64,000 nt of DNA from Verrucomicrobiia bacterium (GCA_036501665.1 DASXZW010000071.1:59763-123762); one strand, 5' to 3'; shown: positions 2,899-60,141, counted from the stretch's first letter. The notes: generated by a model from the letters alone, not told the origin. Made by a program: numbers and translations.

Positions 2899-2902
2899 AT
2901 AT

Positions 2903-10297: not shown

Positions 10298-10502
10298 CGT
10301 GTAACAGTAGGGTCAAAGCGTAATGTTTAAAGTTCAAAGTTTCGGAATTCCGTGCCGGAGCGAAATCCATTTTACAGAAATGCTGCCGGGACCTTCGGGT
10401 GGATGAGCATTCGCCCGATTCCGCTTGGTACCACGAAGCGAATATGATGCAATATGTTCGTTTTGCCGCGCCGTTTGGCCAAAAACCAATCATCAAACCA
10501 CA

Positions 10503-28020: not shown

Positions 28021-29571
28021 ATGAAAACGACCTCGTTCACGGCGCGGAATTATAGAATCTCCATTATTCGTGGAATTACGATTTTCCTTTTGGCCATCGC
28101 TTTCGCTGCTTCGCAGGGAATCACGACGGGAGAAGAGACGAAAGCGGCAACTTCGTTCGAGGGTGAAACAGTGCAGTGGCACGGATTTGACCGCTACGAT
28201 TTCATGATGGACGAATCGGACTTGAGCATCACGCCGTTCAAGCAACCGCAAAAAGAAAAATTTGGCGTGGGCCAACCGCCGGACGGACATCGACGCTGTA
28301 TTGTTGTCGTACCGAAAAATCCGGCGCCCGGAAATCCGTGGTCGTGGCGAGGCTGTTATTGGGACCATCAGCCGCAGACGGAAATCGAATTGCTCAAGCG
28401 CGGTTTTCACATCGTGTTCATCACGCCCGACCCGGATAAAACCTGGGACGCCTGGTATGCCTACCTCGTCGAAAAACACGGACTGTCGTCGAAGCCGGCG
28501 TTCATTGGGATGAGCAAAGGCGGCTACAACGAATTTGTTTGGGCCACCGACCACCCGGACAAAGTCTCCTGCATTTACGCCGATAATCCCGCGATCAACC
28601 GAACGAGTCTGCTGAAACTGGACGGGCTTGCGAGCAATGACGTTCCGCTTCTGCACGTCTGCGGGAGCATTGATCCATTGTTTCCGAATCATACACTTGC
28701 GGCAGAGAGCCTTTATCAATCTTTGGGTGGGCGCATCTCGGTGATGATTAAGGAAGGTTTCGGCCATCATCCGCACAGCCTGCACAATCCGACGCCAATC
28801 GCTGATTTTATCGTGGCGAGTCAAACACCGATTGTTGACGCAACGCCGCCGTTCACCGGCAATAAAATGAGGAAAACCTGGTTTTACGGCGTGAAGAATG
28901 ATTACCGGGATTTTCCGTCGGAGAAAACGCGCATCACTTGTCGGGGGCCTTTGTTTACGGACCGTTATCGGCGTTACGAGTTTGAAATGAAAGGGATTCA
29001 AGGTTCCATAACGATCATCGCTCCAAAAAGCGAAGCGCCGGGAAAACCGTGGGTTTACCGCACTGGATTTGTTGACAGGAATGCGGCAGTCGATCTCGCG
29101 TTGCTCGCGAAAGGATATTATATTGTGACCGGCCCCGTTCCTTATAACGCCGACGGCCCGTTGAAGCCTGACTGGGACGCAGTTTATCAATATCTGGCCA
29201 GCGTCGGTTTCGCGGCAAAGCCGGTTATGGAAGGAGCAGGCGGGGCTGGTGGAGTCGTGTATGCATGGGCCGTTCAGAATCCCGACAAAGTTTCGTGCGT
29301 TTACACGGAAAATCCAGTTCTGCGCGGCGCAATGTCGGTGTCGTCGCTCGTTGATCATTTTGAACCGCTGGCAAAGGCGGGAGTTCCGTTGATCAACGTT
29401 TGCGGCGGGGCGGACCCGGGAATCAATGACAACACTCGGTCGCTGGAAGCCAAGTACAAATCGCTTGGCGGAAAAATCACGGTCATTGTCAAAGAAGGGC
29501 AGGGGCATTATCCACTCGCGCCGACCGATGCTTCCGCCGTGGCAGATCTTATTGTCAAGAATAACCCTTAA
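28021..29571 (+). CDS. Secreted protein with two tandem alpha/beta-hydrolase-like domains
   Basis: 516 aa with a signal/TM segment ITIFLLAIAFAA. Domain 1 (about aa 50-266) has the nucleophile elbow GMSKG, plus D (CGSIDP) and H (GFGHHPH). Domain 2 (about aa 295-513) is a clear paralogue (…NPDKVSCVYTENP…, CGGADP, GQGHYP). Confidence 0.7.
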   Translation: MKTTSFTARNYRISIIRGITIFLLAIAFAASQGITTGEETKAATSFEGETVQWHGFDRYDFMMDESDLSITPFKQPQKEKFGVGQPPDGHRRCIVVVPKNPAPGNPWSWRGCYWDHQPQTEIELLKRGFHIVFITPDPDKTWDAWYAYLVEKHGLSSKPAFIGMSKGGYNEFVWATDHPDKVSCIYADNPAINRTSLLKLDGLASNDVPLLHVCGSIDPLFPNHTLAAESLYQSLGGRISVMIKEGFGHHPHSLHNPTPIADFIVASQTPIVDATPPFTGNKMRKTWFYGVKNDYRDFPSEKTRITCRGPLFTDRYRRYEFEMKGIQGSITIIAPKSEAPGKPWVYRTGFVDRNAAVDLALLAKGYYIVTGPVPYNADGPLKPDWDAVYQYLASVGFAAKPVMEGAGGAGGVVYAWAVQNPDKVSCVYTENPVLRGAMSVSSLVDHFEPLAKAGVPLINVCGGADPGINDNTRSLEAKYKSLGGKITVIVKEGQGHYPLAPTDASAVADLIVKNNP

Positions 29572-29578
29572 ATTCTGT

Positions 29579-30925
29579 ATGAAACGGATCAGTTTGTTCT
29601 TCCTGTCACTCGCGCTGTTCGTGGCTTGGGTTTCAACTGCCTGGGCTGAAGCCGCGACCGGCGAACTTCGCGCCGGCACGGCGAAAATCAGCATTACTCC
29701 CGAAACCGCGGAGCCAATCCATGATCCCGTTTTTGCGCGGAGTTTGGTCCTTGAAGTGAACGGCCAGAGGTGGGCTTTTGTTTCGGCGGACCTCGCCGTT
29801 TTCACGAGCGACAACGTGGAAAAGATTTGCCACGAGAAGTATGGGCTCGACAAGGTTTTCATCTGTTCCACACACAATCACACCGCGCCGTCGAAGCCCG
29901 GCAAAGGCCCGGAATACGCGAACTTGAAGGAGTTTTTCGAAAAGCAAATCGTCGAAGTTGTTGGGATGGCCCTGACGAATATGTTTCCCGCGAGGATCGC
30001 TGCCGGGCGCAAAAGTTTTCCGCAATTGGGATTCAAGCGGTTGATCGTGCGCGAGGACGGCCACTCGCGCGAATCGTGGATGGGCGACGATCATTACGCG
30101 CCGATCAATCCGGACCGGATTCCTTTCGGGCCAGTCGATAACGAAGTGGGCGTCATTCGCATCGAAGACACCAACGGGCAGCCGCGCGCGATTGTGATGA
30201 ATTATGCTTGTCACGCGGATGTGGTTTGCCTGAGTTTCGCGATTTCTGCGGATTATCCCGGGGTCGCCACGCGAAAGGTTGAGGAGGCCTTTGGAAACGG
30301 CGTGGTTTGTTTGTTTGTGAATGGAGCGGCGGGAAATGTGGCGCCGCTGTTCACGGTTCCGCGTCGGACCGGGCCGGACGACCCATTCAAAACCGACTAC
30401 ACGCCGATGGAGCGGATGGGCGAATTACTTTCATATGAAACGATCAAGGTCGCAAAGTCGCTCAGCGGAAAATCAGGCGAAACCACGATCAAGGAAAAAG
30501 ACACCACGCTGGAATTCACAGGGCGATTCGACAAGTCGCGGCATATTGAAGTTCATCTGAGCACGCTGATGATCAACAATGATATTGTGATTGCCGCGAA
30601 TCCCGGCGAGCTGTTCGCGGAGTTGGGCATTGATTGGAAAGCGAGGATGCAGGCGGAAGTCGCGAATCCGTTTTATTTTGGATACACATGGAGCGGCGGC
30701 CAATGGCCCGGTTACGTTCCGAGCATCAAGGGCGCGGCGCTGGGCGGCTTTGGCGCTGACCAGGATTCGCGGATGATTGAAGTCGGCTCCGGCGAAGCGA
30801 TGTTTAACAAGCACCTTGAAAACTACTATGTGCTTTCCGGATTGATGCGCGACAAGCCCGGCCCATCCGGTTTCAAACAAGGTCCTCGATGGATCGTCGT
30901 CCCGGTTCCAGAAAAACCGGAGTAA
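29579..30925 (+). CDS. Secreted hydrolase resembling neutral/alkaline ceramidase N-terminal domain proteins
   Basis: The ORF-track entry is 29426..30925. I prefer ATG 29579 for its Sec signal, MKRISLFFLSLALFVAWVSTAWA. The segments AGTAKISITPE…, FVSADLAVF… and CSTHNHTAPS resemble the ceramidase_alk pattern. This is by memory only. Confidence 0.45.
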   Translation: MKRISLFFLSLALFVAWVSTAWAEAATGELRAGTAKISITPETAEPIHDPVFARSLVLEVNGQRWAFVSADLAVFTSDNVEKICHEKYGLDKVFICSTHNHTAPSKPGKGPEYANLKEFFEKQIVEVVGMALTNMFPARIAAGRKSFPQLGFKRLIVREDGHSRESWMGDDHYAPINPDRIPFGPVDNEVGVIRIEDTNGQPRAIVMNYACHADVVCLSFAISADYPGVATRKVEEAFGNGVVCLFVNGAAGNVAPLFTVPRRTGPDDPFKTDYTPMERMGELLSYETIKVAKSLSGKSGETTIKEKDTTLEFTGRFDKSRHIEVHLSTLMINNDIVIAANPGELFAELGIDWKARMQAEVANPFYFGYTWSGGQWPGYVPSIKGAALGGFGADQDSRMIEVGSGEAMFNKHLENYYVLSGLMRDKPGPSGFKQGPRWIVVPVPEKPE

Positions 30926-30945
30926 TTTCGGTCGCCGGCGGCCTT

Positions 30946-30957
30946 GTCAAATTTGAC
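30946..30957. promoter_or_regulatory. Perfect 12-bp palindrome GTCAAATTTGAC (candidate operator)
   Basis: Read directly from the sequence. It lies about 60 nt upstream of the ATG at 31016, in the only sizeable gap (90 nt) of the co-directional array. Confidence 0.3.
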
Positions 30958-31015
30958 CAAACGGTGACGCGCTCTCGACTCAGCGGCGGCGATGCCGTAG
31001 CGTGACCGCACCATT

Positions 31016-31981
31016 ATGACCAACCTGAACCGTAGAGCGTTCCTTCAAAAATCGGGGCAGGGCGCGTTGATTGCCGGAGTCCTCGCCGGAGATATTCTTG
31101 ACGCCAATGCCGCGGAGACGAAGCCGCGCAAAATGACGGCGGATCTTGTTTGCGGCAACCTTGGAATTTCCGCCAATCAGAATGAGGCAATCGAATTGGC
31201 GGGGCGGCATGGCTTTGAGTCTGTCGGCGTTGACGCGGAGTATGTTGCATCTCTGGAGGCCAGTCAAGTTGAAGAAATAAAATCCAAACTGAAGAGCAAA
31301 AATCTTGTGTGGGGCGCTGCCGGTCTGACGGTGGATTTTCGCGGGGACGATGCTCGTTTTGAATCAACCCTCGCAAAGCTGCCCGCAATTGCCGGCGGAC
31401 TTCAGCGGGCCGGAGTGCAACGTGTTTCCACCTGGCTCAATCCGAGTCATCATCAACTGACTTACATGCAGAATTTTCGGCAGCACGCGTCCCGGATGCG
31501 GCGGGTTGCGGCGGTTCTTGCGAACGAGAACATTCGCTTCGGCATGGAGTATGTCGCGCCAAAAACATTGTGGGCGAGCGGGCGTTATCCGTTTATCCAT
31601 ACGCTCGCGGAAATGAAAGATTTGCTCGCTGAAATGAACTCGCCGAACGCCGGCGTTGTTTTGGATAGCTGGCATTGGTGGCATGCTGGAAACACTGCGG
31701 AGGACATCCTCACTCTCCGGGGCCGGGACGTTATTGCTGTGGATTTGAACGACGCTCCGACCGGCGTTCCAAAAGACCAGATGCCGGACAATCGCCGCGA
31801 ATTGCCTTGCGCAACGGGAGTCATCGATCTTGGCGCGTTTTTGAGCGCTCTTAACGAAATCGGGTACGACGGCCCGGTTCGCGCCGAACCTTTCAACCAG
31901 ACTGTCAATCATATGCCAAAGGACGAGGCTTGCGAGGCCGCGGTCGTTTCGATCAGGAAGGCATTCGCGATGATTCATTGA
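31016..31981 (+). CDS. Tat-exported sugar phosphate isomerase/epimerase (xylose-isomerase-like TIM barrel)
   Basis: 321 aa. The twin-arginine signal is MTNLNRRAFLQKSGQGALIAGVLAG. TIM-barrel AP-endonuclease-2-fold sequence is present (…VVLDSWHWWHAG…, YDGPVRAEPF). Confidence 0.75.
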   Translation: MTNLNRRAFLQKSGQGALIAGVLAGDILDANAAETKPRKMTADLVCGNLGISANQNEAIELAGRHGFESVGVDAEYVASLEASQVEEIKSKLKSKNLVWGAAGLTVDFRGDDARFESTLAKLPAIAGGLQRAGVQRVSTWLNPSHHQLTYMQNFRQHASRMRRVAAVLANENIRFGMEYVAPKTLWASGRYPFIHTLAEMKDLLAEMNSPNAGVVLDSWHWWHAGNTAEDILTLRGRDVIAVDLNDAPTGVPKDQMPDNRRELPCATGVIDLGAFLSALNEIGYDGPVRAEPFNQTVNHMPKDEACEAAVVSIRKAFAMIH

Positions 31982-31995
31982 GCAACTTGCATGAT

Positions 31996-33651
31996 GTGAA
32001 AAAAACTATTGACACAATTATTGGGCTTGCGTTGGTATTGTTGATGATGGCCGGCCTCGCTGGCCGCGCCGTTGCCGGGCCGCTCGAAGACCTGGATAAG
32101 CCGATGGAAGGCCGTTCGATGCGCGCCACCTCCACGATGCGCGAAGGCGAGAGCCGCCGCATGGGCCACGATGTCCGTCATCCCGAAGCGCCTCCTCGCG
32201 GCGATACCAACGAGATGAGCAATTGGGATAATTTCACCGTCGCTCCGGGGGACACGCATGTATTGCTCGACGCGCGAGGGCCGGGCGTCATCAACCATAT
32301 CTGGATGACCTTTCTCGGGCCGGAAAAGCAAAACTGGGCCAAGAACGGTTCGGCCAATCACCAGGAATTATTGCTGCGCATTTATTGGGACGGGAACGAG
32401 CGGCCCGGAGTTGAAGCGCCGGTCGGTGATTTTTTTGCAAGCTGTTTCGGGCAGCGGCACGAAGTGATCAGCCTGCCGGTTGTTGTCACGGACGGGTCCG
32501 CATACAATTGCTTTTGGCCGATGCCCTTTCGCAAATCCGCCCGGATCGAAATCGTCAATCAAAGCAAAAAGCCGCTCAGCCTGCTTTACTACAATATTGA
32601 TTGGGTCAAGAAGAACAGCGTATCAGAGGACACACCCTATTTTTACGCGCAATACCGCCAGGAATATCCGGTCGGGCATGGGAAGGATTACGTAATACTT
32701 GACACCAAAGGGAAAGGCCATTACGTCGGCACGGTGCTGGCCGTCCGCACGCGCAGCCCGCTCTGGTTCGGCGAAGGAGACGAAAAAATTTATATTGACG
32801 GTGAAAAATCGCCGTCGATCTGGGGCACCGGAACTGAGGATTATTTTCTCATGGCCTGGGGCTTGCGCGCCCACAACACGCCGTATTTCGGATGCCCGTG
32901 GACGGACCAATGGGGGATCATCGGCGGCCATACCGAGGCGTATCGCTGGCACATCAACGATCCCATCATCTTCGACAAAGGCATTCGTGTGACGATCGAA
33001 CATTGGGGCTGGATTTCGCCTGATGAAAATCCCGATTACAAACAAATGAGTTGGAACGAACGCGAGGACGATTATTCCAGCGTCGCGTTTTGGTATCAGA
33101 CCGGCCAACCGACTTTTGATTATCGCGCTCCCGATGCCGTCGAACGCGCGTTGCCCAGCCTCGAAAAACTGATCGTGCCCGCGACAAATTTTATGGACGC
33201 GCAGTTTCATGGAAAAGGCGTCGCGTTCCCGCAGGAGCTTGATCTGTACGACGAACCGCAACTCTTTTTCCGCCCAAGCGACGTTTCGGACGGCTGGATG
33301 GAAATGCACTTTACCGTAACCAAAAAGGAGCCTGTCCGTCTTTTGCTCAATACGACGAAAGCCCCCGATTTTGGGATTTACCAGATTTCGCTCAACGGCG
33401 TTAAGCTCGGCGATCCGGTTGATTTTTACAGTTCCAACGTCGTCAACGAAGAGACTCAACTTCTGGATTTCTGGCCCGATCCCGGCGAATATACTTTGCG
33501 CATGGAATGCACCGGCAAAAACTTCGCCTCCAGCGGTATTTATTGTGGCGTGGAATCGCTTCGATTGCGCGGCCGCCGTCCGCGCGTCACAACGATGGGT
33601 CACGACAAGGACAAAGACTGGCGCAAAGACCCGAAGATGTACAACGATTGA
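31996..33651 (+). CDS. DUF2961 / GH172-family glycoside hydrolase with C-terminal extension
   Basis: The ORF-track entry is 31930..33651, which overlaps the upstream gene. The GTG at 31996 gives (M)KKTIDTIIGLALVLLMMAGLAGRAVA, a signal peptide. DUF2961-like motifs are LLDARGPGVINHIWMTF, YFYAQYRQE and GEGDEKIYIDGE…IWGTGTEDYF. Confidence 0.75.
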   Translation: MKKTIDTIIGLALVLLMMAGLAGRAVAGPLEDLDKPMEGRSMRATSTMREGESRRMGHDVRHPEAPPRGDTNEMSNWDNFTVAPGDTHVLLDARGPGVINHIWMTFLGPEKQNWAKNGSANHQELLLRIYWDGNERPGVEAPVGDFFASCFGQRHEVISLPVVVTDGSAYNCFWPMPFRKSARIEIVNQSKKPLSLLYYNIDWVKKNSVSEDTPYFYAQYRQEYPVGHGKDYVILDTKGKGHYVGTVLAVRTRSPLWFGEGDEKIYIDGEKSPSIWGTGTEDYFLMAWGLRAHNTPYFGCPWTDQWGIIGGHTEAYRWHINDPIIFDKGIRVTIEHWGWISPDENPDYKQMSWNEREDDYSSVAFWYQTGQPTFDYRAPDAVERALPSLEKLIVPATNFMDAQFHGKGVAFPQELDLYDEPQLFFRPSDVSDGWMEMHFTVTKKEPVRLLLNTTKAPDFGIYQISLNGVKLGDPVDFYSSNVVNEETQLLDFWPDPGEYTLRMECTGKNFASSGIYCGVESLRLRGRRPRVTTMGHDKDKDWRKDPKMYND

Positions 33652-33660
33652 ACAAACCTC

Positions 33661-34926
33661 ATGGACGGCGATCCCGCCAATCTGAGTAAACAAAAGCGGA
33701 ATTATCCGTTGTTGCTGGCGAGTCAGTTTCTGAGCGCGTTCGGCGATAATCTGATTTTGATGATTATTCTCGGCCCCTTCCTGATAGAGCGGAACAAGGG
33801 ACTGATCACCGAGCAGCAGCAAAGCATCGCGAACGTTTTTTACACGAGCCTGTTGTTTGTTCCTTATGTGTTGCTCGCGCCGCTTGCGGGTTATTTGAAC
33901 GACCGATTTTCCAAGAACCGCGCGTTGATGGCCGGCAATCTTTTCAAGCTCATCGGCGCCGCGATCACCGCCGCTGGAATTGGCGCAAATAAAACCTGGC
34001 TTGGCGTCGGGTATTTTGTTGTTGGCATCGGCGCTTGTGTTTATTCGCCCGCAAAATACGGCATTCTTCCCGAAATTCTTCCGAAGGAACGGCTCGTCAA
34101 GGCGAACGGGCTGTTGGAATTGTTGACGCTCGTCGCTATCCTCACCGGCAACATCGCCGGCGCAATGGCATTTGACAGACTGGCGCTCTCAACGTGTTAC
34201 GCAATCACGATGGCGATCTACGCGCTTTCACTCGCGCTGAATCTCGTGATGACGCGGACTCCCTTTTATCGCGAGGTGCAATTTGCGGGAATTTCCGGCG
34301 AATTCTTCCACAACGTTGGCCAGCTCTTTTCGCAAAAGCGGCTTGCTCGTATCCTGGTTGGAACCGCTCTTTTTTGGGTTTGCGGCGCGGTGCTGAAAAT
34401 GAATTTTCAACCCTGGGGCCAGCGCGTTTTGAACCTGCAAACGATGACCGCCATCAGCCTGTTGGGTCTATGGCTGAGCATCGGCGTCATGGCGGGGAGT
34501 GTGTTGGCGGGGCAACTTTATGCCGTTGGCGATTTGCGCGCGACACGGCGATACGGCTGGCTGCTGGCCGGTGGGATTTTAGCGCTTGGCAGCGTAAGGG
34601 CTATTGTTGACTCTGGGTTCAGCCATGTTCTCGCGGTTGCGATTGCGATATTGATTGTTACCGGTCTGATTGCCGGCTTGTTTTTGATTCCGCTCAACGC
34701 CGCGCTTCAGGCCGAATCGCACAAGGACCGCCTCGGCAAAACCATCGCCACTCAAAACGGAATGGAAAATCTCGCGATGCTCGGCGGGTCCGCAATCGCT
34801 TACTTGAACGTAAAAATCGACTTCAACCCTTCGCAACTTCTCCTGGTCCTTGCGGTCTTCGTTGCAGTGGTAGTCGTCTGGTTAAAAATTCCGCCAAAGC
34901 AGCCCCTTGCAGAAAATGGTGAATGA
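33661..34926 (+). CDS. lplT: MFS transporter, lysophospholipid transporter LplT-like
   Basis: 421 aa with about 12 TM segments. The N-terminus LLLASQFLSAFGDNLILMII is typical of LplT-type MFS proteins. It is translationally coupled to the next genes, and an aas homologue lies two genes downstream. Confidence 0.7.
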   Translation: MDGDPANLSKQKRNYPLLLASQFLSAFGDNLILMIILGPFLIERNKGLITEQQQSIANVFYTSLLFVPYVLLAPLAGYLNDRFSKNRALMAGNLFKLIGAAITAAGIGANKTWLGVGYFVVGIGACVYSPAKYGILPEILPKERLVKANGLLELLTLVAILTGNIAGAMAFDRLALSTCYAITMAIYALSLALNLVMTRTPFYREVQFAGISGEFFHNVGQLFSQKRLARILVGTALFWVCGAVLKMNFQPWGQRVLNLQTMTAISLLGLWLSIGVMAGSVLAGQLYAVGDLRATRRYGWLLAGGILALGSVRAIVDSGFSHVLAVAIAILIVTGLIAGLFLIPLNAALQAESHKDRLGKTIATQNGMENLAMLGGSAIAYLNVKIDFNPSQLLLVLAVFVAVVVVWLKIPPKQPLAENGE

Positions 34927-36332
34927 ATTCCGGCCCACCCATAACTGACAAGCCGGTGTCGATCTTGAAGGCACTTGCGCTCGCAGTCATCGCGGTGGCC
35001 ACTTTTCATCTCGCGTATTTATTCGACGGTTGCGAATTCCTGATAGCCATCTTTCTATTGGGTCTGTTTCAACTCGCCAGGCTGCGCAGCGCACGGCTTG
35101 CGTTCTATTTCGGTTTTGCGATTGGCATTGCCGCTTACGCGCCGCATTTGGCGTTCTTTTGGGAAATATTTGGAGGAGGCGCTATTGCGCTATGGTGCAT
35201 TCTTTCCTTCTGGCTGGGTCTGTTTCTTCTTGTTGGCAGGGCATGTCGAAATCGGTTCGGGCCAACCATTTGGGCCTGCCTTGCGCCATTTATTTGGACC
35301 GGTATTGAATTTTTCCGAAGCGAGCTCTACTACTTTCGATTTTCCTGGCTGAATCCTGGTTACGCATTTTCGCATTTTTCTGGTCTGCAATTTCTAGCGG
35401 AATTCGGCACATATGGAATTGGATTTTTGCTCATGGCATGGGTCGCTTTTTTAAGTTCGTTCATTTGCTTGCCTGCAAAAGTTCGCATCGCGTATGGAAT
35501 TGTTCTGATTGGAATTTCAAGTCTGCCGTTCCTGTATCCGTTTTCTCCAACGCTGGGATCAACTGAATTAATCGTGACGGGCGTGCAATTGGAAGAATGC
35601 ACGGCGGGACAAACCAAGCTTGCTCTGGATGGCGCTCTGAAACATTTCCCGCAAACGGATCTTTTTGTTCTAAGCGAGTATGCCTTTCACGGGCCTGTGC
35701 CTCAGGCGATTCGCGATTGGTGCAAAGCGCATCACAAATTCCTGTTGGCTGGAGGAGAAGACGCAATTTCGCCAACTCAATATTATAACACCGCCTTTGC
35801 GATTGCTCCCGACGGTGAGATTGCCTTTAAGCAAGCCAAGTGTGTCCCGGTTCAATTGATGAAAGACGGCACGCCCGCCTCCAGCCAACATTTATGGAAC
35901 TCTCCCTGGGGCAAGTTGGGAGTGGGGATTTGTTACGATGCAAGCTACTCGCGTGTCACTGATAATTTGGTTCGACAGGGCGCACAAGGGTTGATCTTTC
36001 CAACGATGGATCTCGGCGATTGGGGCCGGCACGAACACGATCTGCACGCGAGGATTGGCCCGATGTGCGCCGCCGAATACCGGTTGCCGATCCTTAAGGT
36101 TTGCAGTTCGGGAATCTCGCAACTAATTTCTCGTCAAGGCCGCGTAGTGGTTTCGGCGCCGTTTCCCGGCGAGGGCGACCTGATCTCTGGGCGGCTCGAA
36201 TTGGCCGGGAAAGGTCAAATGCCGCCAGACAGATTGCTCGGACGAATTTCGGTAGCCATTACTCTCGCGCTGGTCTTGTGGCTTTTGATTGATTCTATTC
36301 GAGGGCGGCGAATTAAACCTTCAATTCCATGA
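34923..36332 (+). CDS. lnt: Apolipoprotein N-acyltransferase-like protein (polytopic membrane domain plus C-N hydrolase domain)
   Basis: 469 aa. A multi-TM N-terminal half precedes a nitrilase-fold half with an E/K/C triad context: DLFVLSEYAF, FKQAKCVPV, GVGICYDASY. ATGA overlaps join it to its neighbours at both ends. Confidence 0.7.
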   Translation: MNSGPPITDKPVSILKALALAVIAVATFHLAYLFDGCEFLIAIFLLGLFQLARLRSARLAFYFGFAIGIAAYAPHLAFFWEIFGGGAIALWCILSFWLGLFLLVGRACRNRFGPTIWACLAPFIWTGIEFFRSELYYFRFSWLNPGYAFSHFSGLQFLAEFGTYGIGFLLMAWVAFLSSFICLPAKVRIAYGIVLIGISSLPFLYPFSPTLGSTELIVTGVQLEECTAGQTKLALDGALKHFPQTDLFVLSEYAFHGPVPQAIRDWCKAHHKFLLAGGEDAISPTQYYNTAFAIAPDGEIAFKQAKCVPVQLMKDGTPASSQHLWNSPWGKLGVGICYDASYSRVTDNLVRQGAQGLIFPTMDLGDWGRHEHDLHARIGPMCAAEYRLPILKVCSSGISQLISRQGRVVVSAPFPGEGDLISGRLELAGKGQMPPDRLLGRISVAITLALVLWLLIDSIRGRRIKPSIP

Positions 36333-38461
36333 TGAAAACAATCGTCCGTTTTCTTCTGCGCCTGTTGTTTAGGTTTCGCGCCGAGAATGTTGCGGTTCTT
36401 GACACCACGGGGCCGGTCATCCTGCTGCCGAACCACACTTCGTGGCTCGATTGGTTTTTTGTGGCGGCGTGCGTTGATAGCACCTGGCGGTTTGTGACGT
36501 CGAAGGAGGCGGCGCAGACCAGCTTAGTTCATCGGTTCATCATGATCAACCGATTCACTTTTCCCGTCGAAATTGATTCCCCGTTTGCTGTCAAGCGCAT
36601 GGCGGAGTTTCTTCAAAGCGGCGGCAAGCTCGTTCTTTTTCCCGAAGGCCGCCTCTCCCGAACCGGCTCGTTGATGAAGCTTTTTGAAGGCACCGGTTTT
36701 CTGCTGCTCAAAACGAACGCCAAGGTCATCACCTGTTATTTGCGCGGCGCGAGGCGGCTCCCGTATTCTCCCAATCCCAACCGCAAATTCCTTTTCCCGA
36801 ATGTCTCCGCCCATTTCAGCGAACTTCTGACCGCGCCAAAGCCCGAAGGCATGAGCATGATCCGCGCACGGCAGCGCGTGACGCGATGGGTCTATGATAC
36901 GATGGTCCGTCAACAATTTGAATGCGATTTCGCCGCCTCGCCGGATTCTGTGCTGGGCTTTATCGTGGAAACCGCGCGGCAATTCCCCGCGAACAATGTC
37001 CTCCAGGATGTGTCGCGGAAAAAGCTCACGTTGCGCCGATTGCTCGCGGGCGCAGCGGCGCTCGCGGAACAATGGCCTGCTCGGTTGTCCGCGGAACAAG
37101 GTGAACACGTCGGCGTCCTTCTTCCCAATTCCAACGCGGTCCCGGCGGCGCTTCTCAGCCTTTGGTCAGTTTCCAAAATCCCCGCGATATTCAACTTCTC
37201 CACTGGCATTCCGACAATGCTCGCCTGCGCGAAACTTGCGGGGGTCAAGAATATCATTACTTCCAAATTGTTCCTGGAGCGCGCCAAGCTGAACCTCCAG
37301 CCGATGACCGACGCAGGCGTCAATATTATTTATCTGGAGGATGTTCGCGCCGCGATTTCCAAACCGCAGCAATGGCGCGCGCTGCTTCGCGCGACTTTCA
37401 GCGCGAATTCCCTCGTCGGCGCTCAGAAGCGCGATGCCACGGCGGTCATTCTTTTCACGAGTGGTTCCGAAGGCCCGCCCAAAGGCGTCGAGTTAACCCA
37501 CGCCAATCTTATTTCCAACATCCTCCAAATGCTCTCGGTCCTAGACCTCATGGACACCGACCGCATTTTCAACGCAATGCCGCTGTTCCATAGCTTTGGC
37601 TTGCTGGGGTTGCTTCTCGGCGTTTCGCGCGGGATTTATGTTTTTCTTTATCCTTCGCCGCTGCACTACCGCATCATTCCGTCGCTCCTTTACGAATTGG
37701 ATTGCACGATTTTTTTTGGCACCAACACGTTCCTCAACGGATACGCGCGCAAGGCCCACGCGTACGATTTTCGCAGCGTGCGAATGCTCATTGCCGGCGC
37801 GGAAAAATTGCAGGAAGCCACCGCCAACATTTGGGCGCGGCAACTCGGTGTTCGCGTGTTGGAAGGCTACGGCGCGACGGAGTGCAGCCCGGCGATCACT
37901 ATCAATACCTTGCTCAATCCGCGGTTCGGTTCCGCAGGGCGGTTCCTGCCGGGAATCGAGTCTCGATTTGAGCCGGTCGAGGGCGTTGCGGAGGGCGGTC
38001 GATTATGGGTGCGCGGCCCGAACATCATGCGCGGCTATCTCAATCCTGAACCAAACGCGAAATTCCAGGAGCAGGGCGGGTGGTATGACACCGGCGACAT
38101 CGCGCGAGTTGATGAGGACGGATTTCTTTTCATACTGGGTCGCCTTAAGCGATTCGCAAAAGTCAGTGGCGAAATGGTCAGCCTCACAGCGGCCGAGGAA
38201 GCGTTGGCGGGCGCTTTTCCACAATATGGTGTGCGCTTTCAAATCGCTGTGCTTGCCCGCCACGATCCCCAGCGCGGCGAGGCCCTTGTTGCCGTTTCAA
38301 ACGAACAAAAGCTGAACCTTGAAGAAGTCCGCGCCGCGATTCGGTCCGCCGGGTTGAGTAATCTTTACGTCCCGCGCGAGGTCAAGTTTTTACGCGAGAT
38401 TCCGAAATTGGGCACCGGCAAAGTCAATCATCGGGAACTTCAGCGATTGATTGACGAGTAG
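36329..38461 (+). CDS. aas: Bifunctional 2-acyl-GPE acyltransferase / acyl-ACP synthetase (Aas-like)
   Basis: 710 aa. The N-terminal PlsC-type HX4D motif is PNHTSWLDW. The C-terminal adenylate-forming domain shows FTSGSEGPPKGV, YGATE and GWYDTGD…GRLKRFAK. Confidence 0.85.
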   Translation: MMKTIVRFLLRLLFRFRAENVAVLDTTGPVILLPNHTSWLDWFFVAACVDSTWRFVTSKEAAQTSLVHRFIMINRFTFPVEIDSPFAVKRMAEFLQSGGKLVLFPEGRLSRTGSLMKLFEGTGFLLLKTNAKVITCYLRGARRLPYSPNPNRKFLFPNVSAHFSELLTAPKPEGMSMIRARQRVTRWVYDTMVRQQFECDFAASPDSVLGFIVETARQFPANNVLQDVSRKKLTLRRLLAGAAALAEQWPARLSAEQGEHVGVLLPNSNAVPAALLSLWSVSKIPAIFNFSTGIPTMLACAKLAGVKNIITSKLFLERAKLNLQPMTDAGVNIIYLEDVRAAISKPQQWRALLRATFSANSLVGAQKRDATAVILFTSGSEGPPKGVELTHANLISNILQMLSVLDLMDTDRIFNAMPLFHSFGLLGLLLGVSRGIYVFLYPSPLHYRIIPSLLYELDCTIFFGTNTFLNGYARKAHAYDFRSVRMLIAGAEKLQEATANIWARQLGVRVLEGYGATECSPAITINTLLNPRFGSAGRFLPGIESRFEPVEGVAEGGRLWVRGPNIMRGYLNPEPNAKFQEQGGWYDTGDIARVDEDGFLFILGRLKRFAKVSGEMVSLTAAEEALAGAFPQYGVRFQIAVLARHDPQRGEALVAVSNEQKLNLEEVRAAIRSAGLSNLYVPREVKFLREIPKLGTGKVNHRELQRLIDE

Positions 38462-38503
38462 CATCGACTTCCCATCCCTGGCGGCATATTGTGGCGCGAA
38501 TTT

Positions 38504-39130
38504 ATGAAACTGCTCTTGTGTTTTCTCCTTGCTGCGTGTGCATCCATTCGCGCCGAAGCCCAGACTCCGCCTCCTCCTGCCGCCGACGCCGGGACGACGA
38601 GCGTCGAGACGATTGTTTGCGTGCGCCACGGGGAAAAACCAAAAGGCGGCCTGGGCCAGCTTAATTGCAAAGGTCTCAATCGCGCCCTGGCTTTGCCGAA
38701 AGTCTTGCTGGGAAAATTCGGAAAGCCTAATTTTGTCTTCGCACCCAACCCAACGGAAAAATCTGATGGGGACAACTATTTCTACGTGCGTCCGCTTGTG
38801 ACCATTGAGCCGACCGCGATTCGATGTGGGCTGCCAATCAACACTAAATTCGGGTTTCGCGACGTCGCCGGACTGGAACAGGAACTTCAACAGGCGCAAT
38901 ATCACAAAGCCACAGTTTTTGTCGCCTGGGAACACGCTTTGCTCGACGTTTTTGCGAAGGAAATGGTAAAGTCACTTGGCGGCGATTCTGCGCAAGTTCC
39001 AAGCTGGGCCTCGGATGATTTTGACAGCATTTTTCTGATCAAAATCACACGCGCGGGGCAGCACCAGACAATTGCATTCAGCGTCGATCACGAAGGCTTG
39101 AATGGCCAGAGCGACGACTGCCCGGATTAA
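38504..39130 (+). CDS. Secreted histidine-phosphatase-superfamily protein
   Basis: The ORF-track entry is 38489..39130 with a TTG start. ATG 38504 gives the signal peptide MKLLLCFLLAACASIRAEA. The RHG motif is present (IVCVRHGEKP), with a later VAWEH. Confidence 0.5.
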   Translation: MKLLLCFLLAACASIRAEAQTPPPPAADAGTTSVETIVCVRHGEKPKGGLGQLNCKGLNRALALPKVLLGKFGKPNFVFAPNPTEKSDGDNYFYVRPLVTIEPTAIRCGLPINTKFGFRDVAGLEQELQQAQYHKATVFVAWEHALLDVFAKEMVKSLGGDSAQVPSWASDDFDSIFLIKITRAGQHQTIAFSVDHEGLNGQSDDCPD

Positions 39131-39154
39131 ACGCGCCGCTTTCGCAATACTTAT

Positions 39155-41359
39155 ATGTACACTTCAAAATTATTTCGTGCGATCTATTTAACCGTGGCGA
39201 TGCTCGCCAGTGTCATCGTTTCTCCGGCGAACGCGGAAGTTCGATTGCCAAAAGTTTTCGCAACCCACATGGTGCTTCAACAGGAAAAGCCGATTGTGGT
39301 GTGGGGTTGGGCGCAACCGAATGAAACAGTGACCGTGACTCTCGACTCGGCAACCGCGCAAGCACAGGCCAATGACCGTGGTGAATGGAAAACCACTCTT
39401 CCTGCAATGAAAGCCGCCGGTCCCTTCACACTCAAAGTGACCGGCTCCAGCACAGCCCAATTTGATGACGTAATGATCGGCGAAGTCTGGCTTTGCTCAG
39501 GCCAGTCAAACATGGAAATGGGAATCGGCGCGGCCAACGATGGCGAAAAGGAAATCGCCGCAGCGGACCATCCTGGAATCCGCCTCCTCCTCGTCGCAAA
39601 AAAATGGGACCCGCTGCCGCAAAATGATATTGACGGCGAATGGAAGGTTTGCTCGCCACAGACGGTGGGGCAGAACGGTTGGGGCGGCTTTTCCGCCGCC
39701 GCCTATTATTTCGGGCGCGAACTCAACGCGAAGCTCGGCGTTACCGTCGGATTGATCGACTCCAGTTGGGGCGGGACGCTCATTCAGCCGTGGACGCCGC
39801 CTGAGGGTTTTGCCTCCGTCCCCGCGCTCGCTGGGGATTACAAACTGGTCCAACTTGCTGACCCCACAACTCCGCAACATCAGGAGCGCCTCAAACAAAC
39901 CCTCGACGGCACCGAAAAATGGCTCGAATCCGCCCGCAAAGCTTTGACCGACCGCACCATCGTTCCGCCGATGCCAGCTTACCCGGCTGATTTGCTTGCG
40001 CCACACGAATTGCAAAACTCCACCGCTCTCTACAATGGAATGATTCATCCGCTCGTCGGATATGGAATCCGCGGCGCAATCTGGTATCAGGGCGAGGCAA
40101 ACCTCGGCGACGGAATGCATTATGCCGACAGAATGAAGGGCCTCATCGGTGGCTGGCGCACGATTTGGAATGAAGGCGAATTCCCGTTCTACTTCGTGCA
40201 AATCGCGCCATTTAATTACGGCGGAAATCCAGAAAAGGAAGCTGAATTCTGGGAAGGGCAGGCCGCTGCCGCTCAATCCATTCCGAACACCGGCATGGCC
40301 GTCATCAACGATATTGGCAACCTTAAGGATATTCACCCTAAAGACAAACAAGATGTTGGCCACCGTCTGGCTTTGTTGGCCCTCGCAAAAACCTATGGTC
40401 GCACCGATGTGACGTATTCCGGGCCAAGCTTTAACTCGATGAAGGTCGAGGACAACAAGTTAAGACTCACCTTTGACAATATCGACGCCGGATTGGCCAC
40501 CCGCGATGGCACTCCGCCGAATTGGTTTGAGATCATTGACGCGGACGATGGCGGATTCGTGAAAGCTGACGCGCAAATTGATGGGGCCACAGTCGTTCTT
40601 TCCGCGCCCGGCGTCAAACATCCGGTCGCCATGCGATACGCCTGGAGCATGCTTGCCGAGCCGAATCTCATGAACAGCGACCGCCTGCCCGTCAGCGCAT
40701 TCCGCGCCGGCACCATTCCGAAACGCGATCTTCTTGCGATGAAAGTTCCCGAAGCCAAGGAGTATCGGCTCGTTTATGATCTTGACCTCGGAAAATTGGG
40801 CAGGGAGATCCAATACAGCGCGGACAATCATCAATCCATTACCCAACCCTTCGACCGCATCGCCTACTTCGTCGAAGTTCAGGAAAATGACGACAACACG
40901 GAATATTTATATGTCTCAATGGATGCTTTCACGACTGACCTGAAAAAAATCGGCGTGCCGACTGTCCAATCCGGCGCGCATTTCCAGGAGAACGTCGCGA
41001 ACTTGAACGTTTTTTCAAACGTTAAAGGAATTGAAACAGGGTCGAATCTTCCCGGAGGCAATATTGAATTCTGGCCAAACAACTACGCTCCCAACAACGC
41101 TTCAAAAGTTCCCAACGCTTCCAATGAAGCCTACGATTTCGGCGACGAACCGGTCGATCCGCCCGATGGCTACGGTTCCATGCAAGTCCACAACCACGAT
41201 GCCAAACAAACACTATTCGCGATCAACCATTGGAGCGAAGGGGGCAGGGCGGACATCGGCATCGGCAATCAGCCAGGCAACAACGCCGATTGGACTTTCT
41301 CCGCCAACGCTGGGAACTTCCCCGTCAAGCGCCTCCGGGTCCTTGTGCGTTGCCGCTAA
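39155..41359 (+). CDS. Sialate O-acetylesterase-like SGNH/DUF303 esterase with ~200-aa C-terminal extension
   Basis: 734 aa with Sec signal …VIVSPANA. The catalytic block GEVWLCSGQSNME, together with IRGAIWYQGEAN and FYFVQIAPF, is typical of the family. The extension starts at about nt 40751. Confidence 0.8.
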   Translation: MYTSKLFRAIYLTVAMLASVIVSPANAEVRLPKVFATHMVLQQEKPIVVWGWAQPNETVTVTLDSATAQAQANDRGEWKTTLPAMKAAGPFTLKVTGSSTAQFDDVMIGEVWLCSGQSNMEMGIGAANDGEKEIAAADHPGIRLLLVAKKWDPLPQNDIDGEWKVCSPQTVGQNGWGGFSAAAYYFGRELNAKLGVTVGLIDSSWGGTLIQPWTPPEGFASVPALAGDYKLVQLADPTTPQHQERLKQTLDGTEKWLESARKALTDRTIVPPMPAYPADLLAPHELQNSTALYNGMIHPLVGYGIRGAIWYQGEANLGDGMHYADRMKGLIGGWRTIWNEGEFPFYFVQIAPFNYGGNPEKEAEFWEGQAAAAQSIPNTGMAVINDIGNLKDIHPKDKQDVGHRLALLALAKTYGRTDVTYSGPSFNSMKVEDNKLRLTFDNIDAGLATRDGTPPNWFEIIDADDGGFVKADAQIDGATVVLSAPGVKHPVAMRYAWSMLAEPNLMNSDRLPVSAFRAGTIPKRDLLAMKVPEAKEYRLVYDLDLGKLGREIQYSADNHQSITQPFDRIAYFVEVQENDDNTEYLYVSMDAFTTDLKKIGVPTVQSGAHFQENVANLNVFSNVKGIETGSNLPGGNIEFWPNNYAPNNASKVPNASNEAYDFGDEPVDPPDGYGSMQVHNHDAKQTLFAINHWSEGGRADIGIGNQPGNNADWTFSANAGNFPVKRLRVLVRCR

Positions 41360-55606: not shown

Positions 55607-55696
55607 TGGAAAACCCTGATCGACTACATAAGTTAGTGAAGAAAAAGCGGTTGCGGCTTGATTCAGCAAAATCTTACCGTATGTTTTGCAACTCGA

Positions 55697-60037: not shown

Positions 60038-60057
60038 ACGCCCTTTCTTCATTTTTT

Positions 60058-60141
60058 CCTAATCTTAATCTTAATCCTAATCATAATCCTCTTCACGTAA
60101 TGGGAAAAGAGATTATGATTAGGATTAAGATTACGATTAGG
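60058..60141. repeat. 31-bp near-perfect inverted repeat built from hexamer (NGATTA) repeats
   Basis: The left arm is 60058-60088 and the right arm 60111-60141, complementary at 30 of 31 positions, with a 22-nt loop. Each arm is five tandem hexamers. Confidence 0.9.

What the first reader, a model, noticed from the sequence alone, without database searches (positions are those of the whole stretch)
33661..38461. lplT - lnt-like - aas joined by ATGA overlaps: the lysophospholipid producer is hard-wired to its salvage pathway
Three genes are translationally coupled by ATGA start/stop overlaps at 34923-34926 and 36329-36332.
- The first is an LplT-like MFS transporter.
- The second is a polytopic protein with a C-N hydrolase domain that retains the Lnt-type Glu/Lys/Cys contexts (LSEYAF, FKQAKCVPV, GICYD).
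- The third is an Aas-type fusion, with HX4D acyltransferase motif NHTSWLD and adenylation motif TSGSEGPPKGV.

Established E. coli biology gives a rationale. Lnt N-acylates apolipoproteins using the sn-1 acyl chain of phosphatidylethanolamine and leaves 2-acyl-lysoPE. LplT flips lysoPE to the inner leaflet, and Aas re-acylates it. In E. coli aas and lplT form an operon, but lnt is unlinked. Here the by-product generator sits between the two repair genes. I am not aware of this three-gene coupling having been described. Alternatively, the middle gene is a paralogue that acylates a different acceptor while generating the same lysolipid. The unit follows the GH172 gene after only 9 nt.
Basis: partly seen in the sequence, partly recalled or inferred. 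Interest (0 to 1): 0.6.

Follow-up and report, generated by a model that had tools for sequence, protein, structure and literature searches.

The report
Lnt-like gene wired to lysolipid salvage
In one group of soil and peat Verrucomicrobia, a stripped-down relative of the enzyme that adds the third fatty acid to bacterial lipoproteins sits in one overlapping gene unit with the two proteins that repair the damaged lipid this reaction leaves behind, an arrangement I did not find described and moderately interesting.

Summary
Three same-strand ORFs (33661-34926, 34923-36332, 36329-38461) are joined by ATGA overlaps.

**What the genes are**
- Gene 1 is an LplT homolog (33% identity to E. coli LplT, E 6e-41).
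- Gene 3 is a full-length Aas (36% identity, E 9e-151).
- Gene 2 has the complete Lnt fold (TM 0.73-0.78 to Lnt structures) and the Glu252/Lys306/Cys337 triad.
- Gene 2 scores below the curated Lnt cutoff (74.9 against 132.9 bits). It belongs to a compact Lnt subtype that lacks E. coli's essential E343, the W237 loop and the 345-365 arm.

**How conserved the linkage is**
- aas follows the lnt-like gene in 62 of 78 related loci.
- The same 4-nt overlap occurs in 57 of 68 junctions.
- lplT is upstream in only 22 of 73 loci.
- A MarR gene heads the unit in 37 of 79 loci, though not in this window.
- The nearest non-Verrucomicrobial relatives lack the linkage.

**Open points**
- Whether these genomes also carry a canonical lnt could not be tested.
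- I found no published description of this linkage.

**Verdict:** a real, conserved operon variant. Its functional reading is plausible but unproven. It is a new variant of a known kind, of moderate interest.

The parts
33661..34926 (+). lplT homolog: MFS lysophospholipid flippase candidate, 421 aa
   Evidence: Pfam MFS_1 scores 89 bits. The best NCBIfam hit is LplT NF008397 at 232.8 bits over the full length, below the 297 cutoff. It also matches the N-terminal MFS half of fused LplT-Aas models. It is 33% identical to E. coli LplT over 372 aa, E 5.7e-41. It is conserved upstream of the lnt-like gene in 22 of 73 loci.
34923..34926 (+). ATGA overlap: lplT stop (TGA) and lnt-like start (ATG)
   Evidence: Read directly from the sequence. 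lplT/lnt-like junctions in 23 related loci overlap by 4 to 63 nt or are 3 nt apart.
34923..36332 (+). Compact Lnt-like membrane acyltransferase, 469 aa: seven N-terminal TM helices, a C-N hydrolase domain (about residues 215-426) and a C-terminal TM helix
   Evidence: CN_hydrolase scores 41 bits. TIGR00546 lnt scores 74.9 bits against a 132.9 cutoff, covering profile positions 21-394 of 395. The AF2 model has pLDDT 88.7 and pTM 0.88. The top 24 Foldseek PDB hits are full-length Lnt structures with TM 0.73-0.78. hhalign against canonical Lnts gives probability 100%, E 3.5e-41.
35295..35363 (+). Lnt membrane-domain motif W125-x3-E129-x2-R132 ... F140-x-W142-L143-x2-G146-Y147
   Evidence: These columns are invariant in the alignment with E. 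coli Lnt. This is the only region that BLASTP aligns significantly with E. coli Lnt (E 5e-5). The translation was checked.
35676..35678 (+). Catalytic Glu252 (E. coli E267)
   Evidence: Invariant in the 30-sequence family alignment.
35838..35840 (+). Catalytic Lys306 (E. coli K335). It is followed by the compact loop C-V-P-V-Q-L-M-K-D315-G, which replaces the FGE(E343) motif and the 345-365 arm
   Evidence: K306, P309, Q311, D315 and G316 are invariant in the family.
35931..35939 (+). Nucleophile Cys337-Tyr338-Asp339 (E. coli C387-Y388-E389)
   Evidence: Invariant in the family.
36329..36332 (+). ATGA overlap: lnt-like stop (TGA) and aas start (ATG)
   Evidence: Read directly from the sequence. 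The identical 4-nt overlap occurs in 57 of 68 related loci.
36329..38461 (+). aas: bifunctional 2-acyl-lysophospholipid acyltransferase and acyl-ACP synthetase, 710 aa
   Evidence: Pfam Acyltransferase 57.5 bits and AMP-binding 184 bits. NCBIfam PRK08043 (Aas) scores 536 bits over residues 1-710 aligned to 1-713 of 719, and PRK06814 scores 713 bits. It is 35.6% identical to E. coli Aas end to end, E 9e-151.
36431..36451 (+). HX4D acyltransferase motif N-H36-T-S-W-L-D41
   Evidence: E. coli Aas has its HX4D at the same residue, 36.
37457..37489 (+). Adenylation (AMP-binding) motif TSGSEGPPKGV

Best explanation
This is a translationally coupled operon module typical of one clade of Verrucomicrobiota: [marR]-[lplT]-compact lnt-aas.

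**Proposed mechanism**
1. The middle protein is a membrane acyltransferase of the Lnt fold, with its nitrilase-type domain on the periplasmic side.
2. Cys337, assisted by Glu252 and Lys306, takes the sn-1 acyl chain of an outer-leaflet phospholipid as a thioester.
3. It passes the chain to an amine acceptor. The most likely acceptor is the N-terminal cysteine of diacylated apolipoproteins, which would make it the lineage's divergent Lnt.
4. Each turnover leaves a 2-acyl-lysophospholipid. LplT flips this to the cytoplasmic leaflet.
5. Aas re-acylates it with acyl-ACP made by its own synthetase domain.
6. The 4-nt stop/start overlaps enforce co-expression of the lysolipid producer and the repair enzymes.

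**Shown here:** the gene structure, the overlaps, the folds and motifs, and the conservation of the linkage.

**Inferred:** the catalytic activity, the acceptor, the membrane topology, co-transcription, and that this is the only Lnt in the genome.
For: **The middle protein**
- Full-length Lnt fold.
- Profile-profile match to canonical Lnts over 404 columns, with the triad aligned.
- Lnt membrane-domain motif retained.
- Many family members carry Pfam LNT_N, and JGI names them Lnt.

**The flanking genes**
- LplT and Aas are clear full-length homologs of the E. coli proteins.

**The linkage**
- aas is directly downstream in 62 of 78 loci.
- The identical 4-nt overlap occurs in 57 of 68 junctions.
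- The full trio is present down to 44% identity, in L094.

**Orthology rather than an old paralogue**
- TIGR00546 scores form a continuous gradient from 75 to 184 bits, and the NJ tree is ladder-like.
- About 20% of members stand alone among housekeeping genes.
- No second Lnt homolog appears in the window or in about 0.9 Mb of related loci.
- The two searches for outgroup-type Lnts showed no contig coincidence with the window-type gene.

**Biochemical rationale from the literature**
- Lnt leaves 2-acyl-lysoPE, which LplT and Aas recycle (PMC11416262; PMC13170283; PMC6167442).
Against: - The protein falls below the curated Lnt cutoff.
- phmmer against PDB finds only Nit2 and not Lnt.
- The segment carrying E343 is deleted, as are the W237 loop and the 345-365 arm, which act in the transfer step. 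E343 is essential, acts in the first step, is invariant in my canonical set, and is retained even in the paralogue AatD (PMC6971011; PMC7943197).
- Another verrucomicrobium, Methylacidiphilum, has a far more canonical Lnt (BlastP 3e-32 to E. coli, against 5e-5 here).
- The linkage to aas coincides with the divergent clade and is absent from its nearest outgroups. That pattern also fits neofunctionalisation.
- A MarR gene often heads the unit, which is unusual for a housekeeping lnt.
- lplT is missing from most loci.
- There are no expression data, and the promoter/terminator scan was uninformative.
Confidence: 0.55

Rival explanations
1. The middle gene is a neofunctionalised Lnt paralogue, and a canonical lnt lies elsewhere in the genome. 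It would still strip an sn-1 acyl chain from a phospholipid. It would then deliver the chain to a different acceptor, such as another protein N-terminus (as AatD does) or an amino-lipid, or to water. With LplT and Aas this would form a regulated sn-1 acyl-chain remodelling cycle of the Lands type, rather than lipoprotein maturation.
For: - E343, the W237 loop and the 345-365 arm are lost. In E. coli the last two act in apolipoprotein transfer and docking.
- Linkage to aas appears only in the divergent clade.
- A MarR regulator is upstream in 37 of 79 loci.
- A more canonical Lnt exists in Methylacidiphilum.
- AatD is a precedent for an Lnt homolog with a non-lipoprotein acceptor.
Against: - No second Lnt was seen on any shared contig or locus, although the power of that test is low.
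- The compact loop architecture is shared with outgroup proteins from Elusimicrobiota, Phycisphaerae and other phyla. Several of these pass the Lnt cutoff and are named Lnt by NCBI. The deletions therefore predate the aas linkage and are not specific to it.
- No candidate acceptor or dedicated transporter gene is conserved beside the unit.
- About 20% of members lack aas altogether.
Confidence: 0.28
2. The adjacency is inherited gene order without functional coupling. Under this reading, lnt simply happened to land next to lplT and aas in an ancestor of this clade.
For: - All the loci come from one phylum-level lineage, so they share ancestry.
- lplT is often absent, and aas is absent in about 20% of loci.
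Against: - The pair persists down to 44% protein identity, while every other neighbour turns over.
- The exact 4-nt overlap is kept in 57 of 68 junctions. That indicates selection on coupled expression.
- The biochemical producer and salvage relation is established in E. coli.
Confidence: 0.1
3. The middle protein is catalytically dead or merely structural, for example a scaffold for the LplT-Aas complex, because it has lost E343.
For: E343 is essential for acyl-enzyme formation in E. coli Lnt, and it is absent here.
Against: - Glu252, Lys306 and Cys337-Tyr-Asp are invariant across 30 family members at 47-63% identity.
- So are Q311, D315 and G316 in the replacement loop. This indicates purifying selection on an active site, and D315 could substitute for E343.
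Confidence: 0.05

Closest known systems
E. coli / P. aeruginosa apolipoprotein N-acyltransferase Lnt (PDB 5N6H, 5N6M, 8B0K and others; TIGR00546)
   Same: - Same overall fold: a TM bundle plus a nitrilase domain plus a C-terminal TM helix, with TM-score 0.73-0.78 over about 500 columns.
- Same Glu-Lys-Cys triad and Cys-Tyr-acid motif.
- Same membrane motif W..E..R...F.W...GY.
   Different: - Only about 21% identity.
- Below the curated cutoff.
- About 40 residues shorter: the FGE motif with E343, the 345-365 arm and the Q..KW (W237) loop are deleted, and CYE becomes CYD.
- E. coli lnt sits next to ybeX/ybeY, unlinked to aas-lplT.
E. coli aas-lplT bicistronic operon and single-chain LplT-Aas fusions (PRK08633, PRK06814)
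   Same: - Same two salvage proteins. Both are full-length homologs with the same HX4D position.
- Tight genetic coupling; the E. coli genes overlap by 8 nt.
   Different: - The order here is lplT, then lnt-like, then aas. E. coli has aas then lplT.
- A third gene, the presumed lysolipid producer, is inserted between them.
- The literature I found reports only the two-gene operon or the fusion.
AatD, the Lnt paralogue of the Aat system in enteroaggregative and enterotoxigenic E. coli (PMC7943197)
   Same: It is an Lnt-fold N-acyltransferase with the same triad, encoded in a dedicated operon rather than at the housekeeping lnt position. It shows that Lnt homologs can have acceptors other than lipobox cysteines.
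   Different: - AatD keeps the E343 equivalent (E286). This protein does not.
- AatD is linked to a T1SS/Lol-like exporter and its substrate. This unit is linked to lysolipid salvage, and no exporter or substrate gene is conserved nearby.
Chlamydia trachomatis LpaT (CT775) and AasC (CT776), with a separate lnt (CT534)
   Same: It is a PVC-superphylum example where lysophospholipid re-acylation is proposed to serve lipoprotein maturation.
   Different: - Aas is split into two genes there.
- lnt is at an unlinked locus.
Compact Lnt-type proteins of Elusimicrobiota, Phycisphaerae, Omnitrophota and others (for example P0231, P0266, P0401, P0405)
   Same: They share the short K-x-x-P-[VI]-Q-F...D-G-x-P-A loop and the CYD motif, and they lack the W237 loop. 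They are the nearest outgroups in the tree.
   Different: - They score above or near the TIGR00546 cutoff (121-184 bits).
- They are not next to aas or lplT.

Membership tests
Lnt (apolipoprotein N-acyltransferase; TIGR00546; Pfam LNT_N + CN_hydrolase) | A single chain with a polytopic membrane domain, an extracytoplasmic nitrilase-fold domain and a C-terminal TM helix, in the Lnt fold | tested here: met
   The AF2 model has pLDDT 88.7. The top 24 Foldseek hits are full-length Lnt structures with TM 0.73-0.78, while soluble nitrilases cover only half of the model. hhalign gives probability 100% over 404 columns.
Lnt (apolipoprotein N-acyltransferase; TIGR00546; Pfam LNT_N + CN_hydrolase) | Catalytic triad Glu-Lys-Cys (E. 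coli E267/K335/C387) | tested here: met
   E252, K306 and C337 align in three independent alignments. They are invariant in the family.
Lnt (apolipoprotein N-acyltransferase; TIGR00546; Pfam LNT_N + CN_hydrolase) | Score at or above the curated equivalog cutoff | tested here: not met
   74.9 bits against a cutoff of 132.9. NCBI PGAP accordingly names the family 'nitrilase-related carbon-nitrogen hydrolase', whereas JGI names it Lnt.
Lnt (apolipoprotein N-acyltransferase; TIGR00546; Pfam LNT_N + CN_hydrolase) | [quoted passage not shown] | tested here: not met
   The FGE segment is deleted in both hhalign and the joint MAFFT alignment. E343 is invariant in my 21 canonical Lnts. An invariant D315 lies nine residues after K306 and might substitute.
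Lnt (apolipoprotein N-acyltransferase; TIGR00546; Pfam LNT_N + CN_hydrolase) | The W237 loop and the 345-365 arm, which act in the transfer step and in apolipoprotein docking in E. coli | tested here: not met
   Both are deleted. Their roles are described in PMC6971011.
Lnt (apolipoprotein N-acyltransferase; TIGR00546; Pfam LNT_N + CN_hydrolase) | N-acylation of diacylglyceryl-cysteine apolipoproteins using a phospholipid donor | not testable with these tools
   This needs complementation or biochemistry.
Lnt (apolipoprotein N-acyltransferase; TIGR00546; Pfam LNT_N + CN_hydrolase) | Being the genome's only (orthologous) Lnt homolog | tested here: inconclusive
   No second homolog appears in the 64-kb window or in about 0.9 Mb of related loci. 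There are no shared contig lengths. Whole genomes could not be scanned.
LplT (lysophospholipid transporter, MFS; NF008397) | MFS fold with full-length similarity to characterised LplT | tested here: met
   MFS_1 scores 89 bits. The best NCBIfam model is LplT, aligned over residues 14-409 to profile positions 4-393 of 414. It is 33% identical to E. coli LplT, E 5.7e-41.
LplT (lysophospholipid transporter, MFS; NF008397) | Score at or above the curated equivalog cutoff | tested here: not met
   232.8 bits against a cutoff of 297.
LplT (lysophospholipid transporter, MFS; NF008397) | Genetic linkage or fusion with aas | tested here: met
   It lies in the same overlapping unit in the window, and it recurs in 22 of 73 loci.
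[quoted passage not shown] | An N-terminal PlsC-type acyltransferase with HX4D fused to a C-terminal adenylate-forming domain, collinear with E. coli Aas | tested here: met
   Pfam Acyltransferase plus AMP-binding plus AMP-binding_C. Residues 1-710 align to 1-713 of 719. It is 35.6% identical, E 9e-151, with H36-x4-D41 at the same position.
[quoted passage not shown] | Score at or above the curated equivalog cutoff | tested here: not met
   536 bits against a cutoff of 886. The higher-scoring PRK06814 model (713 bits) describes an 1140-aa fusion, so an unfused protein cannot reach its cutoff of 1349.
AatD-type specialised Lnt paralogue | Encoded with a dedicated T1SS/Lol-like exporter (aatPABC) and its glycine-acylated substrate | tested here: not met
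   No such genes are present in the window or in related loci.

The most novel reading that the evidence does not exclude
The compact Lnt-like enzyme is not the lipoprotein N-acyltransferase. Instead it is the deacylating half of a dedicated, often MarR-controlled, periplasmic-leaflet sn-1 acyl-chain remodelling cycle, a bacterial Lands-type cycle. In that cycle the enzyme strips sn-1 chains onto Cys337 and passes them to water or to a non-lipoprotein amine. LplT flips the lysolipid, and Aas installs a new chain from activated free fatty acid. This would be a new physiological role for the Lnt fold. It would also explain why the loops used for apolipoprotein docking are gone.
Probability: 0.2. 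Interest if true: 0.75.

Novelty: new variant of a known kind. Interest (0 to 1): 0.45.

Why it matters
**Independent support for an E. coli inference**
In E. coli, the idea that LplT and Aas exist largely to mop up the lysolipid left by Lnt rests on biochemistry. Here evolution has written that relationship into one overlapping gene unit. This is independent comparative support, and it offers a compact three-gene cassette for testing the relationship: express the lnt-like gene with and without lplT and aas, then measure lysoPE.

**A subtype that breaks the E. coli rules**
The unit also flags a widespread, uncharacterised compact Lnt subtype that lacks residues considered essential in E. coli (E343 and W237) and the 345-365 arm. 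There are two possibilities:
- These enzymes N-acylate lipoproteins without those elements. That would revise the mechanistic model and matter for Lnt as a drug target.
- They do something else. That would reveal a new use of the Lnt fold.

**A possible regulatory input**
The recurrent MarR gene hints at regulation of envelope lipid repair in abundant soil and peat Verrucomicrobia.

Tried and rejected
1. **Soluble nitrilase reading.** phmmer against PDB hit only soluble Nit2/Nit3. I rejected it because the fold search and the profile-profile alignment match full-length Lnt, including the membrane domain.
2. **Searching for a second, canonical lnt in the same genomes.**
   - I used the 'longest contig' column to look for Lnt-type hits on the 2.63, 3.04 and 3.62 Mb contigs and other contigs that carry the window-type gene.
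   - Searches seeded with a bridge protein (P0267) and with a profile of nine bridge and outgroup proteins (A3) gave no coincidences. They returned mostly proteins from other phyla, so the test has low power.
   - tblastn with E. coli Lnt on all loci found nothing extra.
3. **The 16 loci without aas.** I suspected a divergent aas because 670-700 aa ORFs lie directly downstream. They are UvrD helicases, FGGY kinases and similar proteins, so the absence is real.
4. **Promoter/terminator scan of 30800-39400.** Counts equal those from shuffled sequence, so the scan is uninformative. No promoter-like site lies on the + strand.
5. **GH172 as part of the unit.** Rejected. Neither it nor any other window neighbour recurs in related loci.
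6. **Measuring whether D315 sits where E343 does.** Model coordinates are not exposed to the sandbox.
7. **Literature.** Five searches found no report of lnt linked to lplT or aas. The library is not exhaustive.

Full report
**1. Observation.** ATGA occupies 34923-34926 and 36329-36332, so each stop codon overlaps the next start. All quoted motifs are present: E252 in LSEYAF, K306 in FKQAKCVPV, C337 in GICYD, and N35-D41 (NHTSWLD) and T377-V387 (TSGSEGPPKGV) in the third protein. The upstream gene is DUF2961/GH172 and ends 9 nt before the first ATG.

**2. Organism and setting.** The middle protein is 100% identical to a protein from a Verrucomicrobiae MAG on a 137-kb contig. All close homologs (50-66% identity) come from Verrucomicrobiota, mostly from peat and soil metagenomes. 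The rest of the window is ordinary chromosome: two RND efflux operons, ribonucleotide reductase, RecG, aldolase, MTHFR and glycoside hydrolases. It contains no lgt, lspA or lol genes and no second C-N hydrolase.

**3. The flanking genes.**
- Gene 1 is an MFS protein. Its best curated model is LplT, matched over the full length at 232.8 bits, below the 297 cutoff. It also matches the MFS half of fused LplT-Aas models. It is 33% identical to E. coli LplT, E 6e-41.
- Gene 3 is collinear with E. coli Aas from end to end (35.6% identity, E 9e-151). Its HX4D motif is at the same residue, 36, and it has a complete adenylation domain.
- I accept both as homologs of the salvage pair. They miss the equivalog cutoffs, as distant-phylum orthologs often do.
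- E. coli has the order aas then lplT, with an 8-nt overlap. Here the order is reversed and a third gene sits in the middle.

**4. The middle gene.** The sequence evidence alone is ambiguous:
- Pfam sees only CN_hydrolase (41 bits).
- TIGR00546 (lnt) aligns over positions 21-394 of 395 but scores only 74.9 bits against a cutoff of 132.9.
- BLASTP to E. coli Lnt is significant only in the membrane region (E 5e-5).
- phmmer against PDB finds only soluble Nit2.

Structure and profile evidence settle the architecture:
- A confident AF2 model (pLDDT 88.7, pTM 0.88) has as its 24 best PDB matches the full-length Lnt structures of E. coli and P. aeruginosa. These score TM 0.73-0.78 over about 500 columns. 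Soluble nitrilases match only the extramembrane half.
- hhalign of a 30-member family alignment against 21 canonical Lnts gives probability 100%, E 3.5e-41, over 404 columns.
- Glu252, Lys306 and Cys337 align with E267, K335 and C387.
- The Lnt membrane motif W..E..R...F.W...GY is retained.

**5. How it differs from canonical Lnt.** A joint alignment of canonical, intermediate and family sequences shows two discrete architectures.
- Canonical Lnts have K-x-H-L-V-P-F-G-E(343), followed by the 345-365 arm, and a Q..K-W(237) loop.
- The window protein has K306-C-V-P-V-Q-L-M-K-D315-G and no arm. It has no W237 loop, and its nucleophile motif is CYD rather than CYE.
- According to the literature, E343 is essential, is highly conserved among Lnt homologs and acts in acyl-enzyme formation. 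W237 is essential for the second step, transfer to the apolipoprotein, and the arm is proposed to guide the incoming apolipoprotein (PMC6971011).
- Even the specialised paralogue AatD keeps the E343 equivalent (PMC7943197).
- In the family, K306, P309, Q311, D315 and G316 are invariant, so the site is under selection. D315 may stand in for E343, but I could not measure this.
- I therefore file the protein as Lnt-fold or Lnt-like, in a compact subtype, and not as a demonstrated Lnt equivalog.

**6. Where the compact subtype sits.**
- A profile search of 1.84 billion representatives finds 439 clusters at E of 1e-30 or better. The top 150 all belong to this family.
- More distant representatives hit both the window protein and E. 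coli Lnt.
- TIGR00546 scores rise smoothly: 75, 93, 112, 121, 126, 146, 161-184.
- An NJ tree is ladder-like. It runs from canonical Lnts (Acidobacteriota and others), through compact 'bridge' proteins whose named members are Elusimicrobiota, Phycisphaerae and Omnitrophota, into the Verrucomicrobial clade.
- The bridge proteins already have the compact loops, and several pass the Lnt cutoff and are named Lnt by NCBI. The deletions therefore predate the operon linkage and are not peculiar to it.

**7. Conservation of the linkage.** I assembled 98 loci from genome, metagenome and assembly look-ups.
- aas lies immediately downstream of the lnt-like gene in 62 of 78 loci with enough flank. The figure is 32 of 33 at 53% identity or above and 30 of 45 below that.
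- The stop/start overlap is exactly 4 nt in 57 of 68 junctions and the gap is 18 nt or less in 66 of 68.
- lplT is upstream in 22 of 73 loci: 21 of 33 in the near subclade and 1 of 40 beyond it.
- The full trio nevertheless recurs in a deep member, L094, at 44% identity.
- The 16 loci without aas have unrelated neighbours such as UvrD and FGGY kinase.
- None of the window's other neighbours is conserved in related loci.
- Outgroup compact Lnts (P0230, P0274, P0276, P0277, P0405) and two deep members (P0410, P0432) are not next to aas.
- A MarR-family gene directly precedes the unit in 37 of 79 assessable loci, six of them as MarR-LplT-Lnt-like-Aas. It is absent in the window and its nearest relatives.
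- The loci are phylogenetically related and a few are near-duplicates, so the counts are not independent events. Even so, retention of the pair and of its exact junction, while every other neighbour changes, argues for selection.

**8. Most likely mechanism (inference).** The Lnt-fold enzyme forms an acyl-Cys337 thioester from the sn-1 chain of an outer-leaflet phospholipid and transfers the chain to an amine. The most probable acceptor is the N-terminal cysteine of apolipoproteins. The 2-acyl-lysophospholipid left behind is flipped by LplT and re-acylated by Aas. This is the established E. coli cycle (PMC11416262, PMC13170283 and PMC6167442), and translational coupling would keep producer and repair in step. 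I put this at about 0.55.
- The main rival, at about 0.28, is a paralogue with another acceptor or a hydrolytic role. It is favoured by the missing apolipoprotein-handling elements, the MarR gene, the coincidence of the linkage with the divergent clade, and the more canonical Lnt of Methylacidiphilum.
- Against that rival: the compact architecture is older than the linkage, no second Lnt was seen anywhere I could look, and about 20% of members stand alone among housekeeping genes.
- Synteny without function (about 0.1) and a dead enzyme (about 0.05) are less likely.

**9. What could not be settled.** The decisive unknown is whether the same genomes also carry a canonical lnt. My indirect tests were negative but weak. 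They were: contig-length coincidence in two wide searches, tblastn of the window and all loci, and an attempted AFDB search. Co-transcription is inferred from the overlaps only, because the promoter/terminator scan was uninformative.

**10. Novelty and verdict.** In five full-text searches I found the Lnt-to-lysoPE-to-LplT/Aas relationship described only biochemically. Genetic coupling was reported only for lplT-aas operons or fusions. In Chlamydia, another PVC lineage, lnt is unlinked. The parts are all of known kinds. What is new is the operon architecture, together with the recognition that the lnt partner belongs to an uncharacterised compact subtype lacking elements thought essential. I rate it a new variant of a known kind, with interest 0.45. 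It is a tidy, testable comparative-genomics result rather than a surprise, with upside if the compact enzyme proves to have a different acceptor or mechanism.

Noticed in passing
Related loci, e.g. L007:7528-8004, L094:2538-3011, L027:6317-6775 (not present in the window): A MarR-family regulator gene sits directly upstream of the unit in 37 of 79 assessable loci. In 31 it is MarR-Lnt-like-Aas, and in 6 it is MarR-LplT-Lnt-like-Aas. This suggests the module is regulated, perhaps by fatty acids or lysolipids. The window and its nearest relatives lack it.
   Followed up: partly
Family-wide; window 35838-35870 and the alignment: A 'compact' Lnt subtype occurs in several phyla (Verrucomicrobiota, Elusimicrobiota, Phycisphaerae, Omnitrophota). 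It has K-x-x-P-[VI]-Q-F...D-G-x-P-A and CYD, and it lacks the FGE/E343 motif, the 345-365 arm and the W237 loop. Several members pass TIGR00546 and are named Lnt by NCBI. This conflicts with the view that E343 and W237 are universally required.
   Followed up: partly
window 38489-39130 (+): This 213-aa ORF lies 27 nt after the aas stop and has no Pfam hit. Its N-terminus, MKLLLCFLLAAC, looks like a lipoprotein signal peptide with a lipobox (LAAC). It would be a potential substrate of the pathway, but it is not conserved beside the unit elsewhere.
   Followed up: partly
L034:7894-13942: About 5.3 kb is inserted between the lnt-like gene and aas. A duplicated C-terminal fragment of the lnt-like gene lies at 13185-13610. 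This is probably a mobile-element insertion that disrupts the otherwise invariant junction.
   Followed up: no
L010:9387-11511: The gene caller splits aas into a 282-aa minus-strand ORF and a 419-aa AMP-binding ORF. However, tblastn aligns Aas residues 2-710 continuously. This is probably a frameshift error in a long-read assembly, not a real split.
   Followed up: partly
window 29426-30925 (+); also L092:8078-9400: There is a weak match to the N-terminal domain of neutral/alkaline ceramidase (23 bits, below the 32 cutoff) three genes upstream of the unit. A clear Ceramidase_alk gene lies near a bridge-type Lnt in L092. This may be a coincidence, but both are lipid amidases.
   Followed up: no
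window 31016-33651 (+): The genes upstream on the same strand are a xylose-isomerase-like TIM-barrel protein and GH172/DUF2961. The listed GH172 ORF (TTG at 31930) overlaps the preceding gene by about 50 nt, so its true start is probably further downstream. The 9-nt spacing to lplT is not conserved in relatives.
   Followed up: partly
window 174-6082 (-) and 55658-61566 (+): Two complete RND efflux operons (membrane-fusion protein, AcrB-type pump and outer-membrane factor) lie at opposite ends of the window.
   Followed up: no
window 10425-13784 (+): This 1119-aa protein has five DUF11 repeats and a weak match to the Chlamydia cysteine-rich OMP6 domain. It is probably a large envelope or surface protein typical of the PVC group.
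   Followed up: no
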